Numbered from the stretch's first letter, positions 1,904 through 4,878 are shown. The stretch: 27,916 nt of DNA from an uncultured Clostridia bacterium (GCA_934271245.1 CAKQQY010000024.1:1-27916), one strand, 5' to 3'. Notes: a model not told the origin generated them from the letters alone. Numbers and translations: made by a program.

Positions 1904-2176
1904 ATGCCTTATAAAACGAGTAAATATACAGCACAGCAAAATAGTGAATTTGCTATGAGATGTCTTGAAGTTCTTGATAGTAATCCAAATGCAATGAGTA
2001 TTGCAGAAATTCAAATGAGTGATATTGCTCTTAGAAATGTTACTTCACAGAAACTTAGTAGAGTTCTTAGTCATCTTATTGAAATGGGCATGGCGCGGAA
2101 AGCTAAAGACAAAGCAAGCGGGCATATGGTCTATAAAAGCACAGCAGTAATGAAGAATCAGGGGTATGAAGTATGA
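1904..2176 (+). CDS. Small winged-helix DNA-binding protein (putative regulator)
   Basis: 90 aa. Pattern MSIAEIQ...SRVLSHLIEMGMA is typical of wHTH proteins. Paralogous to ORFs at 24910 and 27248. Overlaps the next gene by ATGA. Confidence 0.5.
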   Translation: MPYKTSKYTAQQNSEFAMRCLEVLDSNPNAMSIAEIQMSDIALRNVTSQKLSRVLSHLIEMGMARKAKDKASGHMVYKSTAVMKNQGYEV

Positions 2177-2595
2177 TTGATAGTTTTAGAGATAAATATT
2201 TTTTCTTGAGTAATTATTCAGCCAGCCCATTCCGTATTGATACTGTTTTATTCCCCACAATGGAGCATTATTTTCAAGCAAGTAAAGCAAATAATCAAAA
2301 GGATTATCTATTTATTGCGAATGCTCCTACTCCTGGTGACGCCAAACGTCTGGGGAGACGTATCCAACTCCGGCACGATTGGGAAGAAGTTAAAGATAAT
2401 GTAATGCTCATTGGCTTACGCAAGAAATTTGCTAATCCTGAGTTACGTGATCTTCTTCTGGCTACTGGTGATGAAGAATTAGTAGAGGGCAATTATTGGG
2501 GAGATACCTACTGGGGCGTATGTAATGGAATTGGACAAAATAAATTGGGTAAATTGCTTATGCAAGTAAGAGAGGAAATTAAAAATAATGCTTAA
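2173..2595 (+). CDS. NADAR (YbiA/DUF1768) family protein
   Basis: Matches E. coli YbiA over its full length: EHYFQASK, RHDWEEVKDNVM, LRKKFANPELRDLLLATGDEELVEGNYWGDTYWG, NKLGKLLMQVRE. Confidence 0.85.
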   Translation: MIDSFRDKYFFLSNYSASPFRIDTVLFPTMEHYFQASKANNQKDYLFIANAPTPGDAKRLGRRIQLRHDWEEVKDNVMLIGLRKKFANPELRDLLLATGDEELVEGNYWGDTYWGVCNGIGQNKLGKLLMQVREEIKNNA

Positions 2596-2764
2596 AGTAA
2601 TTCTCTTCATTTGTTGGATTATTTCATTTATTAGTTGGTCATATTTTTTCTATAAAATGCTTAATACCAAAAATAAAGATAAAGCTCCTGAATATATGAC
2701 TTATATGTGGATTTCTGTTGCAGTTATGAATGTTTTTGCCTTATTGATAAAATTTGCTGTATAA
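2588..2764 (+). CDS. Small hydrophobic (two-TM) protein
   Basis: 58-aa ORF MLKVILFICWIISFISWSYFFYK...ISVAVMNVFALLIKFAV. Start overlaps the NADAR stop. No RBS. Below the ORF-track length cutoff. Confidence 0.3.
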   Translation: MLKVILFICWIISFISWSYFFYKMLNTKNKDKAPEYMTYMWISVAVMNVFALLIKFAV

Positions 2765-2777
2765 GGAGTTGATAAAA

Positions 2778-3536
2778 ATGAGTACGCTATGTGTATCAGA
2801 TATTCATGGTAATATGAATATCTGGAACCAGATTAGAAATCTTATTAATCTTGAAAAAGACACCTTGATTTGTCTTGGTGATTGCGCAGATAGAGGTCCA
2901 GAAGGCTGGGAAATTATTAAAGATATGATTCGTGGCACAATCGCTGGTAATGTAATCTATGTGCGCGGTAATCATGAACAAATGCTTATTGATGCACTTG
3001 ATGATTATATTAAATATGATGGCATGATGGATTATGCTTATATGCTCTTGGCTCAAAATGGCGGAACCGAGACATTTAATTCAGCAACTCAAGATCATTA
3101 TATGACTGATTGGCTTACGCATCTTAAACGAACAAAACCATTTTATGAATATTTAAATACCAAAGAAGAACGTATTTTCTTATCTCACGCCGGGTGTTCT
3201 TGGAATCGGCTGAAACATCATTTTGACAATGATAAATTTAAAAAAGAAAATACAGAAATGCAAGAATACCTTAAAAAAGAATTACTCTGGAATAGAAAAA
3301 ATTTTGATGATAAATATTATTATGGTTATTATGATTATCAAGTGTTCGGCCATACTCCTATTCCTTATTTAATTCAAAATGTAGAATATTTTAAAGAACA
3401 TCCACATCCACTCAAATCTTCATATGATAACTGTCAGCAATGGCATAAGATCAATATTGATGCTGGCACATACACTACTGATTTGGCTATTGTTCTTAAT
3501 CTTGATACATTTGAAGAAATCCTTATTAAATCCTGA
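2778..3536 (+). CDS. PPP-family (lambda-phosphatase-like) Ser/Thr protein phosphatase / metallophosphoesterase
   Basis: Motifs DIHGN, GDCADRG, GNHE. AAGGAG RBS precedes the ATG at 2778. The ORF-track start at 2754 is probably too far upstream. Confidence 0.8.
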   Translation: MSTLCVSDIHGNMNIWNQIRNLINLEKDTLICLGDCADRGPEGWEIIKDMIRGTIAGNVIYVRGNHEQMLIDALDDYIKYDGMMDYAYMLLAQNGGTETFNSATQDHYMTDWLTHLKRTKPFYEYLNTKEERIFLSHAGCSWNRLKHHFDNDKFKKENTEMQEYLKKELLWNRKNFDDKYYYGYYDYQVFGHTPIPYLIQNVEYFKEHPHPLKSSYDNCQQWHKINIDAGTYTTDLAIVLNLDTFEEILIKS

Positions 3537-3600
3537 TATTTTATTTTTTAAATATAATATATTATAATATATATATAAAGAAGTAAAGGATTTGATAGAT

Positions 3601-3879
3601 ATGGCAGGACAGATCGTAATACATAGTTTTTATTGTATGAATTGTGGTAAAATGGCAATGGAACTTCCACGTAAAAAAGGTTTTCAATACGAAAGATTTC
3701 ATAGAAAGAAGCTCTATTGTCCTTATTGCAAAACAGAAATTAATTGTGTCGAATGTAAGAATGATGATGATGTATTTGAATTTAGGGAGAATTTTTTGAA
3801 TGGAGCCTATGAACAAGAGAAAACCCAATCTTTGGATTTTATCGGGCAGTCCCGCGAGTGGGAAGAGCACCTTCATTAA
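3601..3879 (+). CDS. Zinc-ribbon protein (CxxC...CxxC...CxxC)
   Basis: CMNCG, CPYCK and CVEC pairs. AAAGGA RBS precedes the ATG at 3601. Its 3' end overlaps the next gene by ~80 nt in another frame. Confidence 0.45.
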   Translation: MAGQIVIHSFYCMNCGKMAMELPRKKGFQYERFHRKKLYCPYCKTEINCVECKNDDDVFEFRENFLNGAYEQEKTQSLDFIGQSREWEEHLH

Positions 3880-4330
3880 GAAAACATTCACTGGGAATAA
3901 TACAAGAATTATTTCCAGAGATGCAATTAGATTTTCTATGTTGAATGAAGGTAATAGTTATTTCGCTAAAGAAAAAGAAGTATTTAGAGAATTTATTAAT
4001 CAAATTAAAATAGCATTGAATGAAGTAGATAATGTAGTAGTTGATGCTACTCATATCAATGAACGCTCACGCAATAAACTTCTTAATGCTATTGGAGAAT
4101 ATAAATTAAGAAACATTCTTATTAATTGTATTTGGATGGATATTCCTCTTGAAGTAGCCCTTGAACGCAATTCAAAAAGAGAAGGTAAAGCTTATGTTCC
4201 AGAAGATGCAATTAGAAGAATGTATGCCGATTTTAGCAAACCTACTTATTATGAAAAATATAAGTATAGTAAAATCTGGCGTGTTGATGAAGAAGGTAAT
4301 TCCTGGCTTGAGCCGAAGGAGGTAGATTAA
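3800..4330 (+). CDS. pnk: Polynucleotide 5'-kinase (T4 Pnk kinase-domain-like P-loop kinase)
   Basis: LSGSPASGKSTF (Walker A), ISRDAIR, VVDATHINERSRNKL and IWMDIPLEVALERNSKREGKAYVPEDAIRRMYADF align with the T4 Pnk N-terminal kinase domain. AGGGAG RBS. Confidence 0.75.
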   Translation: MEPMNKRKPNLWILSGSPASGKSTFIKKTFTGNNTRIISRDAIRFSMLNEGNSYFAKEKEVFREFINQIKIALNEVDNVVVDATHINERSRNKLLNAIGEYKLRNILINCIWMDIPLEVALERNSKREGKAYVPEDAIRRMYADFSKPTYYEKYKYSKIWRVDEEGNSWLEPKEVD

Positions 4331-4332
4331 TC

Positions 4333-4878
4333 ATGGCAGTATTCCTAACTTCAGATTGGCATTTTTGTCATAATCAGCCATTCCTCTATGAACCGCGGGG
4401 ATTTAATAATGTAGATGATATGAATGAAGCTATCATTGCAAAACATAATAGTATTGTTGGTCCAGAAGATGATGTGATTGTACTGGGCGATTTGATGCTT
4501 AATGATACTGAAAAAGGTATCCAATGCGTTAATAGACTTAATGGTAATCTGCATATTGTATGTGGAAATCATGATACTGCAAAGCGCGTTCAAGAGTATG
4601 TAAATCTTAAACTTGATACTGAAATTTGGGGTTATGCAACTCCATATAAATATAAGAAATATAATTTTTATCTATCTCATTATCCTACATTGACCAGTAA
4701 TCTTGATGTAGATAAGCCACTTAAAGCACGAGTAATCTGTCTATGTGGCCACTTGCACACCAAAGACCGTTGGACCGATTGGGATAAAGGTCTTATTTAT
4801 CATGTAGAAATGGATGCTCATAATTGTTATCCTGTTCTACTGGATGATATTATTGAAGAAATTAAAAATAAAATTTAA
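4333..4878 (+). CDS. Calcineurin-like metallophosphoesterase (candidate 2',3'-phosphatase partner of the kinase)
   Basis: Motifs SDWHFCH, GDLM, GNHD and GHLH. AAGGAGG RBS. Start overlaps the pnk stop. Confidence 0.75.
   Translation: MAVFLTSDWHFCHNQPFLYEPRGFNNVDDMNEAIIAKHNSIVGPEDDVIVLGDLMLNDTEKGIQCVNRLNGNLHIVCGNHDTAKRVQEYVNLKLDTEIWGYATPYKYKKYNFYLSHYPTLTSNLDVDKPLKARVICLCGHLHTKDRWTDWDKGLIYHVEMDAHNCYPVLLDDIIEEIKNKI

What the first reader, a model, noticed from the sequence alone, without database searches (positions are those of the whole stretch)
1904..4878. Early TAG-free cluster resembling an anti-defence/repair island: NADAR, PPP phosphatase, Pnk kinase and metallophosphoesterase
NADAR-family enzymes remove ADP-ribose from guanine in DNA, which would counter DarT-type toxins. 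A T4 Pnk-like 5'-kinase sits next to a calcineurin-like phosphoesterase (the bacterial Pnkp arrangement, split into two genes), and a ligase is present elsewhere. Together these could heal tRNA breaks made by anticodon nucleases (PrrC/RloC-like defences). A lambda-type Ser/Thr phosphatase could counter kinase-based defences. All of these genes lack TAG codons, as expected for early genes.
Basis: partly seen in the sequence, partly recalled or inferred. Interest (0 to 1): 0.6.

Follow-up and report, generated by a model that had tools for sequence, protein, structure and literature searches.

The report
Phage RNA-end-healing operon, ligase missing
This stretch of an uncultivated, TAG-recoded phage is one early-type operon whose enzymes most likely repair the ends of RNA cut by the host; it is a compact variant of a known phage counter-defence, with a previously undescribed zinc-ribbon partner on the kinase and no RNA ligase in view.

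Summary
NADAR (2173-2595), a lambda-type PPP phosphatase (2778-3536), a Pnkp-clade polynucleotide kinase (3800-4330) and a second metallophosphoesterase (4333-4878) are all present, with intact catalytic motifs and no in-frame TAG, in a phage that reads TAG as Gln.

The unit is larger than reported. Two strong terminators (1820-1853, 6281-6311) bracket an eight-gene operon, 1904-6282. It also holds a wHTH-like gene, a small membrane ORF, a zinc-ribbon gene overlapping the kinase start, and a flotillin.

In 37 non-redundant related phage loci:
- the metallophosphoesterase directly follows the kinase in 35;
- the zinc-ribbon gene directly precedes it in 28, and four cluster-representative proteins from an exhaustive search of a public protein library are zinc-ribbon-kinase fusions;
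- an Rnl5-type RNA ligase lies upstream in 27.

cREC, RlaP-like and Thg1-like genes also occur nearby. The best reading is therefore an early RNA-end-healing module.

- The window's ligase (23354-24562) is an ATP-dependent DNA ligase. No RNA ligase is on this 27.9-kb contig, and the closest relatives also lack it in the module.
- The Pnkp-type phosphatase homologue is the lambda-like PPP, not the adjacent phosphoesterase.

The NADAR is YbiA-type, so an anti-DarT role is plausible but unproven. An anti-kinase role for the PPP has no support.

This is a new variant of a known kind, of moderate interest.

The parts
1820..1853 (+). Intrinsic terminator closing the upstream MVP-like gene. It marks the 5' boundary of the operon. 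An AT-rich stretch containing TATAAT and a ribosome-binding site follow, up to 1903.
   Evidence: 15-bp stem followed by a T-run; sequence read.
1904..2176 (+). W90: a 90-aa protein that may be a winged-helix protein and is the first gene of the operon. In relatives its homologue sits directly upstream of the Rnl5 ligase.
   Evidence: phrog_2440 'transcriptional regulator', E 9e-4. A homologue shows a weak SarA/Rot match. Its stop codon overlaps the NADAR start (ATGA).
2173..2595 (+). YbiA-subfamily NADAR N-glycosidase (140 aa, core fold only).
   Evidence: PF08719, E 3.5e-30. TIGR02464 scores 101 bits against a cutoff of 73.7. E. coli YbiA 2b3w, E 1.9e-24. Residues E31, K38, R62, W70, K74, E105, D111 and W114 are present.
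2588..2764 (+). A 58-aa ORF with two hydrophobic segments. It is not conserved in relatives and may be spurious or lineage-specific.
   Evidence: Hydropathy analysis, and no homologue in any fetched locus.
2778..3536 (+). Lambda-phosphatase-type (PPP) binuclear metallophosphoesterase, 252 aa.
   Evidence: Motifs DIH, GDCADRG, GNHE, SHAG and GHT are present. Family profile against solved structures: 1g5b E 6.6e-27, CthPnkp phosphatase 4j6o E 3.7e-8. It matches phrog_246 at profile positions 175-374, and the kinase matches positions 9-109 of the same profile.
3592..3879 (+). ZNR: a four-cysteine zinc-ribbon protein (95 aa) whose 3' end overlaps the kinase start by 80 nt. It is the partner module of the kinase.
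   Evidence: Cys15/18/43/46 and an invariant HRKK-LYC motif. It lies directly upstream of the kinase in 28 of 37 loci. It is fused to the kinase in P0286, P0340, P0364 and P0366. The model has pLDDT 84 and a bL33-like ribbon fold.
3800..4330 (+). Polynucleotide 5'-kinase of the bacterial Pnkp clade (176 aa, stand-alone).
   Evidence: P-loop G16-S23, S39-R-D41-x-x-R44, VDAT81 and R123/R127 are present. Family profile against solved structures: CthPnk 4gp7 E 1.4e-26, PSTK, T4 Pnk and PNKP. TIGR04075 bacter_Pnkp positions 9-139, E 4.4e-14.
4333..4878 (+). MP2: a COG4186/aq_1665-type binuclear metallophosphoesterase (181 aa), the constant downstream partner of the kinase.
   Evidence: Motifs DWHFCH, GD, GNHD, SHYP and GHLH are present. 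phrog_547, E 7e-41. Family profile against 1xm7, E 7e-25. It lies directly downstream of the kinase in 35 of 37 loci.
4894..6282 (+). Flotillin/SPFH (Band-7) protein, the last gene of the operon.
   Evidence: PF01145, E 2.5e-17; Flot, E 1.2e-8; NF058507 FloT, E 1e-75. It is present downstream in 13 of 37 loci. No terminator lies before it and a strong one lies after it.
6281..6311 (+). Intrinsic terminator closing the operon.
   Evidence: 14-bp stem (5 G-C pairs) followed by a T-run.
23..1813 (+). The 3' part of a major-vault-protein homologue. It forms a separate transcription unit but recurs upstream of the module in relatives. It is also TAG-free.
   Evidence: PF11978 MVP_shoulder, E 6e-22, plus Vault_3. 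Rat MVP 4hl8 residues 339-816, E 2.5e-17. It is present upstream in 8 of 37 loci.

Best explanation
Region 1904-6282 is a single, terminator-bounded, TAG-free operon of a large uncultivated phage that reads TAG as Gln. It is probably expressed before recoding is established, that is, early.

The core is a nucleic-acid end-healing set:
- a Pnkp-clade polynucleotide 5'-kinase;
- a small bL33-like zinc-ribbon module that works with the kinase. Its gene overlaps the kinase gene here and is fused to it in some relatives;
- two Mn-type phosphoesterases: an aq_1665-type enzyme immediately downstream and a lambda-phosphatase-type enzyme upstream.

The most likely job is to convert the 2',3'-cyclic-phosphate (or 3'-phosphate) and 5'-OH ends left by host RNases, such as anticodon nucleases and toxin RNases, into 3'-OH and 5'-phosphate ends. 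An RNA ligase could then reseal tRNA or other RNA.

The YbiA-type NADAR is an accessory N-glycosidase that removes ADP-ribose from nucleic-acid bases or processes ADP-ribose derivatives. The flotillin is co-transcribed and may act as a scaffold.

Shown: gene identities, catalytic motifs, operon boundaries, TAG depletion, conserved synteny, and the zinc-ribbon-kinase fusion. Inferred: RNA as the substrate, early timing, which phosphoesterase does which step, and the existence of a ligase elsewhere in the unsampled genome.
For: Domain and motif identities.

Operon bounds: terminators at 1820-1853 and 6281-6311, with overlapping or abutting genes between them.

TAG depletion: 0 in 2,059 codons against 37 in 6,321, and conserved in relatives.

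Synteny in 37 non-redundant kinase-anchored loci:
- MP2 directly downstream in 35;
- ZNR directly upstream in 28;
- Rnl5 ligase within 10 kb upstream in 27 (21 of the 26 loci with at least 6 kb of upstream flank);
- a PPP-type gene (close type in 16, divergent type in 11).

The relatives' ligase is of the Naegleria Rnl5 type (5cot, E 1e-40).

Other RNA-repair genes in the same blocks: cREC PF20274, E 4e-18; RlaP-like, E 1.2e-4; Thg1. One locus has a 21-tRNA array directly upstream of the kinase-MP2 pair.

More distant homologues of the kinase occur as kinase-Metallophos-Rnl1 fusions, or as kinase-HD fusions next to Rnl5.

ZNR-kinase fusions.

Literature:
- Lambda phosphatase itself hydrolyses nucleoside 2',3'-cyclic phosphates, and the CthPnkp phosphatase belongs to its family (PMC2190708).
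- T4 Pnk plus Rnl1 counter PrrC and are expressed in the delayed-early mode (PMC3014915).
Against: - No RNA ligase is present on the 27,916-nt contig.
- The five relatives with at least 6 kb of upstream flank and no ligase in the block (L003, L011, L030, L031, L046) include the four whose gene order is most like the window's (L003, L011, L030, L046). The sealing step is therefore unaccounted for in exactly this sub-lineage.
- The MP2 family is widespread in cultured phages (832 records), often without a kinase. In phage nieznany it lies near an ATP-dependent DNA ligase.
- Some MP2 family members weakly match PdeM, a ligase-associated DNA-damage-response endonuclease.
- The nearest solved relative of the PPP is a protein phosphatase by name.
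- Pnk-type kinases can also act on DNA.
- There are no expression or biochemical data.
Confidence: 0.55

Rival explanations
1. One reading: four independent counter-defence activities. NADAR reverses DarT guanine ADP-ribosylation of phage DNA. The PPP dephosphorylates targets of kinase-based defences. The kinase plus the adjacent phosphoesterase form a split Pnkp that heals tRNA for the ligase seen elsewhere in the window.
For: The families are correct. NADARs of several clades, including YbiA, hydrolyse guanine-ADP-ribose in vitro, and phage NADARs counter DarTG1 (PMC11125620; PMC11825919). In L003 the NADAR sits beside NAD+ salvage genes and a Macro-like gene. The slot between W90 and NADAR is therefore a variable cargo site.
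Against: - The ligase elsewhere in the window is a DNA ligase.
- The Pnkp-type phosphatase homologue is the PPP, not the adjacent gene.
- A PPP-type gene lies within the RNA-repair block in most related loci (close type in 16 and divergent type in 11 of 37, some with both), often directly beside the RNA ligase. This argues for one pathway rather than an independent anti-kinase role.
- E. coli YbiA and T4 NADAR did not rescue DarT1 toxicity in uninfected cells.
- This NADAR lacks the DarG1 N-terminal extension.
Confidence: 0.15
2. An RNA-decay accelerator rather than a repair system. The kinase phosphorylates 5'-OH RNA fragments, and the phosphoesterases clear 3'-phosphates. Host 5'-monophosphate-dependent RNases and 3' exonucleases can then degrade the fragments, as T4 PNK does after RegB cleavage. 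This needs no ligase.
For: No RNA ligase is on the contig or in the module of the closest relatives. The T4 precedent for both PNK activities promoting mRNA decay is described in PMC3014915. Early-type expression fits host takeover.
Against: About three quarters of related modules keep an Rnl5 ligase, and some also carry cREC, RlaP-like or Thg1 genes. These make sense for rejoining, not for decay. No RegB-like endoribonuclease was found in the window.
Confidence: 0.12
3. DNA end processing. The kinase and phosphoesterases clean 5'-OH and 3'-phosphate DNA breaks, or MP2 acts as a nuclease, for the phage's own ATP-dependent DNA ligase during replication or repair.
For: The window encodes an ATP-dependent DNA ligase, RNase H and topoisomerase II. 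MP2 homologues lie near a DNA ligase in phage nieznany. Eight of 25 MP2 family members weakly match PdeM, the ligase-associated DNA-damage-response endonuclease. Pnk enzymes such as T4 Pnk and PNKP also act on DNA (established knowledge).
Against: The DNA ligase is 18 kb away in another gene block. The conserved partners in relatives are RNA ligases and RNA-repair accessory genes, not DNA ligases. The kinase's nearest relatives are the CthPnkp RNA-repair kinase and a tRNA kinase.
Confidence: 0.1
4. A signal-degrading set. The two metallophosphoesterases and the NADAR destroy small-molecule immune signals or toxins, such as cyclic nucleotides or oligonucleotides and ADP-ribose derivatives. They would not act on polymer ends.
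For: Calcineurin-like phosphodiesterases and NADAR have been predicted to target nucleotide and ADP-ribose-derived signals in large phages (PMC7824862; PMC9503650). The NADAR neighbours NAD+ salvage genes in L003.
Against: This reading does not explain the near-invariant coupling of MP2 to a polynucleotide kinase and its zinc-ribbon module, nor the linkage to RNA ligases.
Confidence: 0.08

Closest known systems
Bacterial Pnkp (Clostridium thermocellum Pnkp-Hen1 RNA repair enzyme: kinase, lambda-like phosphatase, ligase)
   Same: The kinase is closest to the CthPnkp kinase domain (E 1.4e-26) and shares the P-loop, the D-x-x-R motif and the lid arginines. A lambda-phosphatase-type binuclear phosphoesterase accompanies it, and the CthPnkp phosphatase 4j6o matches the PPP family profile.
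   Different: The three activities are not in one polypeptide. No ligase domain or Hen1 was found here. The PPP is much closer to lambda phosphatase (98 bits) than to the Pnkp phosphatase (36 bits). There is an extra aq_1665-type phosphoesterase and a zinc-ribbon module that Pnkp lacks.
T4 Pnkp plus Rnl1 tRNA repair against the PrrC anticodon nuclease
   Same: A phage-encoded, early-expressed 5'-kinase together with 3'-phosphoesterase activity. The proposed logic is the same: heal ends cut by a host RNase.
   Different: The T4 phosphatase is a DxDxT (HAD) domain fused to the kinase, whereas here the phosphoesterases are separate binuclear metalloenzymes. T4 has its Rnl1 ligase. Relatives of this phage use Rnl5-type ligases, and this contig has none.
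Phage and bacterial RNA-repair gene neighbourhoods catalogued by comparative genomics (Burroughs and Aravind 2016, recalled from memory; Iyer et al. 2021, PMC7824862)
   Same: The same 'syntax': ligase plus kinase plus phosphoesterase plus accessory nucleotidyltransferase, cREC and NADAR. From memory, SPFH/Band-7 proteins were proposed there as scaffolds. The 2021 survey notes calcineurin-like phosphatases in a few jumbo phages.
   Different: I did not find this arrangement (ZNR-kinase-aq_1665-type phosphoesterase core, lambda-type PPP, YbiA-type NADAR, flotillin, MVP homologue, in TAG-recoded phages) described in the papers I could read. The 2016 paper itself was not available to check.
Phage anti-DarT NADARs (AdfN of T4, Bas32, Bas60) and the DarG1 antitoxin
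   Same: The NADAR fold and the conserved catalytic and ADP-ribose-binding residues.
   Different: This protein belongs to the YbiA subfamily. It has Glu at the discriminating position where DarG1-type proteins have Asp and T4-type proteins have His, and it passes the TIGR02464 cutoff. It has no DarG1 N-terminal extension. Johannesman et al. found only one phage NADAR distantly related to the YbiA group.

Membership tests
NADAR superfamily, YbiA subfamily | Match to PF08719 above the gathering score and to TIGR02464 above its cutoff | tested here: met
   PF08719 scores 105.8 bits against 35.1. TIGR02464 scores 101.3 bits against 73.7.
NADAR superfamily, YbiA subfamily | Conserved active-site residues, with Glu (not Asp or His) at the position equivalent to PnNADAR E125 | tested here: met
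   E31, K38, R62, W70, K74, E105, D111 and W114 were mapped by alignment to 2b3w and 8bau. The criterion comes from PMC11543638.
DarG1-type antitoxin NADAR | [quoted passage not shown] | tested here: not met
   The protein is 140 aa and aligns from residue 5 to the YbiA core. No ART or DarT gene was found in the window. NF053876 scores 57 bits against a cutoff of 240.
NADAR (any) | Hydrolysis of guanine-ADP-ribose on DNA, or of riboflavin intermediates | not testable with these tools
   This is an enzymatic property.
Polynucleotide 5'-kinase (Pnkp / T4 Pnk clade of P-loop kinases) | P-loop GxxxxGK(S/T), general-base Asp with Arg three residues later (D-x-x-R), a Walker-B-like Asp, and lid arginines | tested here: met
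   G16-S23, D41, R44, D82 and R123/R127 are present and are invariant or nearly invariant in 38 homologues.
Polynucleotide 5'-kinase (Pnkp / T4 Pnk clade) | The closest solved relatives are polynucleotide or tRNA kinases rather than nucleoside or small-molecule kinases | tested here: met
   Profile hits: CthPnk 96 bits, PSTK 70, T4 Pnk 62, Pnkp1 60, mammalian PNKP 55.
Bacterial Pnkp (TIGR04075) | Single polypeptide with kinase, phosphatase and ligase domains, and a Hen1 partner | tested here: not met
   TIGR04075 scores 51.6 bits against a cutoff of 750, matching the kinase region only. No ligase domain or Hen1 was found among the window ORFs scanned.
T4-type Pnkp | C-terminal DxDxT (HAD) 3'-phosphatase domain fused to the kinase | tested here: not met
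   The protein is 176 aa and consists of the kinase domain only.
Lambda-phosphatase / bacterial PPP family | Motifs DxH, GDxxDRG, GNHE, H and GH, with lambda phosphatase as the nearest structure over its full length | tested here: met
   All motifs are present and invariant in 39 homologues. 1g5b, E 6.6e-27, covers profile positions 3-185.
Lambda-phosphatase / bacterial PPP family | Phosphoprotein substrate as opposed to RNA 2',3'-cyclic phosphate | not testable with these tools
   Lambda phosphatase itself does both in vitro (PMC2190708).
aq_1665 / COG4186-type metallophosphoesterase (phrog_547) | Motifs DxHxxH, GD, GNHD, H and GHxH, with similarity to 1xm7 | tested here: met
   Motifs. They are invariant in 25 homologues. 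1xm7, E 7.3e-25. phrog_547, E 7e-41.
Complete phage RNA-repair system (heal and seal) | An RNA ligase encoded with the healing enzymes | tested here: not met
   No Rnl5 is in the window (all E > 1 with filters off). The only ligase is a DNA ligase. The feature is met in 27 of 37 related loci. The rest of this phage's genome is not available.

The most novel reading that the evidence does not exclude
The operon and its upstream neighbour may encode a scaffolded RNA-repair machine. In this reading a major-vault-protein homologue and a flotillin (both SPFH-type cage or ring formers) organise a zinc-ribbon-guided polynucleotide kinase, two phosphoesterases and an ADP-ribose-removing NADAR. It would be a phage counterpart of the eukaryotic vault, which combines MVP, an RNA-binding TROVE protein, an ADP-ribosyltransferase and a small RNA. 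That would hint that vault-like particles have an ancestral role in RNA repair or protection. Separately, the sub-lineage without a ligase may have re-purposed the healing enzymes.
Probability: 0.1. Interest if true: 0.8.

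Novelty: new variant of a known kind. Interest (0 to 1): 0.45.

Why it matters
Phage RNA repair is known mainly from T4. This is a widespread alternative design. An Rnl5-clade motif scan confirmed 235 related stretches in viral contigs, and many of the listed contigs are 130-200 kb, from gut and other metagenomes.

The design has four notable features:
- the kinase is stand-alone and carries a previously undescribed bL33-like zinc-ribbon module;
- the 3' healing is done by binuclear metallophosphoesterases;
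- the whole set is kept free of the recoded TAG codon, which fits expression before the phage switches the host's decoding;
- a sub-lineage lacks the ligase.

It offers a defined set of small proteins to test against anticodon nucleases and DarT-type toxins. The ligase-less sub-lineage is a natural experiment on whether end-healing enzymes have a function beyond repair.

Tried and rejected
1. A megablast of 1800-6300 against cultured phages found nothing. Single-protein scans of viral contigs with the kinase and the PPP found nothing. Only profile-based scans worked.

2. I tried to learn whether genomes whose module lacks the RNA ligase carry one elsewhere. Two ligase-profile scans and one degenerate DNA motif scan of viral contigs returned capped lists. 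These did not include the contigs of L030, L031, L036 or L046, so the result is inconclusive, not negative.

3. I looked for a non-coding RNA partner. Rfam at E<=1 gave only three sub-threshold hits. There are no tRNAs in the window or in most related loci. The apparent L20-leader hit at 6239-6318 is the operon terminator.

4. The Burroughs and Aravind 2016 paper could not be retrieved. Statements about it are from memory.

5. The DUF2828 protein of L011 had no PDB sequence match, so a TROVE relationship was not tested.

6. PADLOC gave only a NADAR match to a candidate component, PDC-M42C.

7. phAss-1, a TAG-recoded gut phage and the best cultured-collection hit for MP2, is not a close relative and has no similar module nearby.

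8. I considered a programmed frameshift joining ZNR and the kinase. It is rejected as unnecessary, because both ORFs are complete and relatives show the same overlap. The natural fusions do show that the two act together.

Full report
**What is in the sequence**

The window is an entire 27,916-nt public contig. An identical PPP protein is recorded on a longest contig of exactly that length. It is AT-rich (about 31% GC) and all genes are on the + strand.

TAG is a sense codon:
- Reading through TAG raises + strand coding cover from 72% to 85%.
- No gene ends in TAG.
- All three TAGs of the radical-SAM gene 6695-7990 align with Gln in its TAG-free paralogue 15180-16493.

- NADAR at 2173-2595: PF08719, E 3.5e-30.
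- A calcineurin-like PPP enzyme at 2754/2778-3536.
- An AAA_33 kinase at 3800-4330.
- A Metallophos_2 protein at 4333-4878.

All catalytic motifs are intact.

- a 90-aa, possibly winged-helix protein (1904-2176);
- a non-conserved 58-aa double-hydrophobic ORF (2588-2764);
- a 95-aa four-cysteine zinc-ribbon protein (3592-3879) whose last 80 nt overlap the kinase start.

**TAG depletion**

Genes from 23 to 6282 contain 0 TAG in 2,059 codons. The rest of the window has 37 in 6,321. At that rate, zero has a Poisson probability of about 6e-6 for the block and about 3e-3 for 1904-4878 alone.

TAG-free genes are not unique to the block. The topoisomerase, DNA ligase and RNase H genes, among others, are also TAG-free (10 of 24 genes).

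The depletion is conserved. Across 45 related loci the homologous genes carry 0-1 TAG per 1000 codons. This fits the published view that recoded stops concentrate in late and lytic genes (bioRxiv 10.1101/2021.08.26.457843 and PMC10607447). Timing itself is inferred.

**Operon limits**

Two strong intrinsic terminators lie on the + strand:
- 1820-1853 (15-bp stem), just after the upstream gene;
- 6281-6311 (14-bp stem), just after the flotillin gene.

Between them the genes overlap or abut. The transcription unit is therefore 1904-6282 and includes the flotillin (PF01145 and Flot; FloT model, E 1e-75).

**What each enzyme is**

*Kinase.* A profile of 38 homologues hits the CthPnkp kinase domain best (4gp7, E 1.4e-26). 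It then hits seryl-tRNA(Sec) kinase, T4 Pnk, Pnkp1 and mammalian PNKP. The P-loop, D41-x-x-R44, D82 and the lid arginines are invariant or nearly so. It is a polynucleotide kinase of the bacterial Pnkp clade.

*PPP.* A profile of 39 homologues hits lambda phosphatase over its full length (1g5b, E 6.6e-27). It hits the CthPnkp phosphatase domain more weakly (4j6o, E 3.7e-8). PHROG 246 and PHROG 8238 are families containing kinase-phosphatase(-ligase) fusions. Both match the window kinase with their N-terminal part and the PPP with their middle part. Lambda phosphatase itself has 2',3'-cyclic phosphodiesterase activity, and the Pnkp phosphatase belongs to its family (PMC2190708).

*Downstream phosphoesterase (MP2).* Its nearest structure is Aquifex aq_1665 (1xm7, E 7e-25), whose function is unknown. 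Weaker relatives are GpdQ, MJ0936, YfcE and PdeM. MP2 is a different kind of phosphoesterase.

*NADAR.* It is YbiA-type:
- E. coli YbiA, E 1.9e-24.
- TIGR02464 above its cutoff.
- Residues E31, K38, R62, W70, K74, E105, D111 and W114 are present.
- Glu occupies the position that separates the YbiA subfamily from DarG1-type (Asp) and T4-type (His) NADARs.

**Comparative context**

Exact and homologous look-ups, plus a profile scan of viral contigs, gave 37 non-redundant loci anchored on a close kinase homologue. Many come from contigs of about 130-200 kb.

| Feature relative to the kinase | Loci (of 37) |
|---|---|
| MP2 directly downstream, mostly overlapping or within about 25 nt | 35 |
| Zinc-ribbon gene directly upstream, usually overlapping | 28 |
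| RNA ligase within 10 kb upstream | 27 (21 of the 26 with at least 6 kb of flank) |
| Close PPP | 16 |
| Divergent PPP | 11 |
| NADAR | 8 |
| Flotillin | 13 |
| MVP homologue | 8 |

Further points from the relatives:
- The ligase is Rnl5-type. It has the PHA02142 OB domain plus PF09414, and Naegleria RNA ligase 5cot scores E 1e-40.
- Many loci form a compact PPP - Rnl5 - ZNR - kinase - MP2 cassette (for example L019, L022, L023).
- The same blocks also hold a cREC cyclic-phosphate-processing domain (PF20274, E 4e-18), an RlaP-like RNA-repair nucleotidyltransferase (E 1.2e-4, just under the cutoff) and, in one locus, Thg1.
- One locus has 21 tRNA genes, including a CTA suppressor, directly upstream of the kinase.
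- More distant kinase homologues are fused as kinase-Metallophos-Rnl1, or as kinase-HD next to Rnl5.

At the level of the lineage this is an RNA heal-and-seal system.

**The zinc-ribbon partner**

The family has no Pfam model. Its members are mostly stand-alone proteins of 65-120 aa. The AlphaFold model (pLDDT 84) is a four-stranded ribbon plus a helical hairpin. The ribbon superposes on ribosomal protein bL33 (TM about 0.75 on the target, RMSD about 2 A). Foldseek E-values are only 0.08 or higher, so this is a resemblance, not a membership.

An exhaustive profile search found four cluster representatives of 229-246 aa: P0286, P0340, P0364 and P0366. Each is an N-terminal zinc ribbon fused to the kinase (ZNR E 1e-19 to 1e-34; kinase E 1e-48 to 1e-61). 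Together with the conserved overlapping arrangement, this shows the two proteins act together. That the ribbon recognises RNA substrate is inference.

**The missing ligase**

The window's only ligase (23354-24562) is an ATP-dependent DNA ligase next to the topoisomerase II genes (PF01068 E 3.4e-18, the C-terminal OB domain, PF09414 below its cutoff). A filter-free search with the Rnl5 profile finds nothing in the window. The remaining ORFs have no RNA-repair domains.

Where the ligase is present in relatives, the W90 homologue sits directly upstream of it. In the window, W90 overlaps the NADAR start. In L003 the same slot holds NAD+ salvage genes and a Macro-like gene. The slot between W90 and NADAR is therefore a variable cargo site.

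The window, L003, L011, L030, L031 and L046 lack the ligase there. Whether it lies elsewhere in those genomes could not be settled, because the outputs were capped.

**Interpretation**

The best-supported mechanism is early end-healing of RNA broken by host RNases. The kinase, with its zinc-ribbon module, phosphorylates 5'-OH ends. The two metallophosphoesterases open and remove 2',3'-cyclic and 3'-phosphates. A ligase that is unseen here, or lost, seals the break.

Rivals that need no RNA ligase:
- Promotion of RNA decay, as T4 PNK does after RegB cleavage (PMC3014915).
- DNA end cleaning for the phage DNA ligase. MP2 relatives lie near a DNA ligase in phage nieznany, and some match PdeM weakly.
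- Destruction of small-molecule immune signals, as predicted for such domains in large phages.

The NADAR may remove ADP-ribose from guanine, a general in-vitro activity that includes YbiA. However, E. coli YbiA did not protect cells from DarT1. The domain has also been linked to RNA-repair and NAD+ contexts. A role for the PPP against defence kinases has no evidence.

**Comparison and novelty**

The system works like T4 Pnkp/Rnl1 and bacterial Pnkp, but it is a member of neither:
- there is no HAD phosphatase;
- there is no single kinase-phosphatase-ligase polypeptide;
- there is no Hen1.

Similar neighbourhood 'syntax' has been catalogued by comparative genomics (PMC7824862; the 2016 survey is cited from memory).

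What appears new:
- the zinc-ribbon module of the kinase;
- the constant aq_1665-type partner;
- the YbiA-type phage NADAR in this context. A 2025 survey found only one phage NADAR near the YbiA group;
- the TAG-free packaging of the module in a recoded phage;
- the ligase-less sub-lineage.

I rate it a new variant of a known kind, with interest of about 0.45.

Noticed in passing
window 23-1813 (5' end cut by the contig end); full-length copies at L006:1416-3941, L010:10794-13292, L011:3485-5965: A phage-encoded homologue of the eukaryotic major vault protein (MVP_shoulder E 6e-22, Vault_3; rat MVP residues 339-816, E 2.5e-17). It recurs upstream of the RNA-repair block in 8 of 37 loci. In L011 it is preceded by a DUF2828/DUF7788 vWA-type protein, and in L010 by a Thg1-like gene.
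   Followed up: partly
window 23-1813 and 4894-6282: The MVP-like and flotillin genes use CAG for Gln (21:2 and 19:5 CAG:CAA) and are about 40% GC. The rest of the window uses CAA and is about 30% GC. This suggests recent acquisition or different expression demands.
   Followed up: no
window 6695-8844 and 15180-17161: Two paralogous cassettes. Each has a radical-SAM enzyme (44% identical to the other) followed by a gene for a long Cys/Gly/Ser-rich peptide. They resemble RiPP maturation pairs. The first cassette carries TAG codons and the second has almost none.
   Followed up: no
window 9704-12317: A PhoH-like (PIN_4 plus PhoH) gene appears split into 9704-10615 and 11862-12317 by a LAGLIDADG-type homing-endonuclease ORF (10917-11861). 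This could be an intron or an intein. Relatives (L003, L009) have an uninterrupted gene of about 418 aa.
   Followed up: no
window 25239-26237: A GIY-YIG endonuclease-like ORF with a long coiled-coil N-terminus carries 11 in-frame TAG codons, by far the highest density in the window.
   Followed up: no
L003:1856-6095: In the closest large relative (a 200-kb contig) an NAD+ salvage set sits between W90 and NADAR: nicotinamidase, a PRPP-synthetase-like gene, NAMPT, a Macro-like gene and NAD synthase. This slot holds the RNA ligase in other relatives and nothing in the window.
   Followed up: partly
L029:7360-8526 and L017:7233-8393: Adenylosuccinate-synthetase-like (PurA/PurZ-type) genes lie next to a vWA-like gene inside the same variable region of two relatives. 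This may relate to modified-base synthesis. They are absent from the window.
   Followed up: no
L031:596-9626: An array of 21 tRNA genes, including a CTA-anticodon suppressor, lies immediately upstream of the kinase-MP2 pair in one relative.
   Followed up: no
L001:738-1302: In a 2.3-kb contig that carries an identical kinase, the MP2 gene is split into two frames (56 and 133 aa). This is either a frameshift pseudogene or an assembly error.
   Followed up: no
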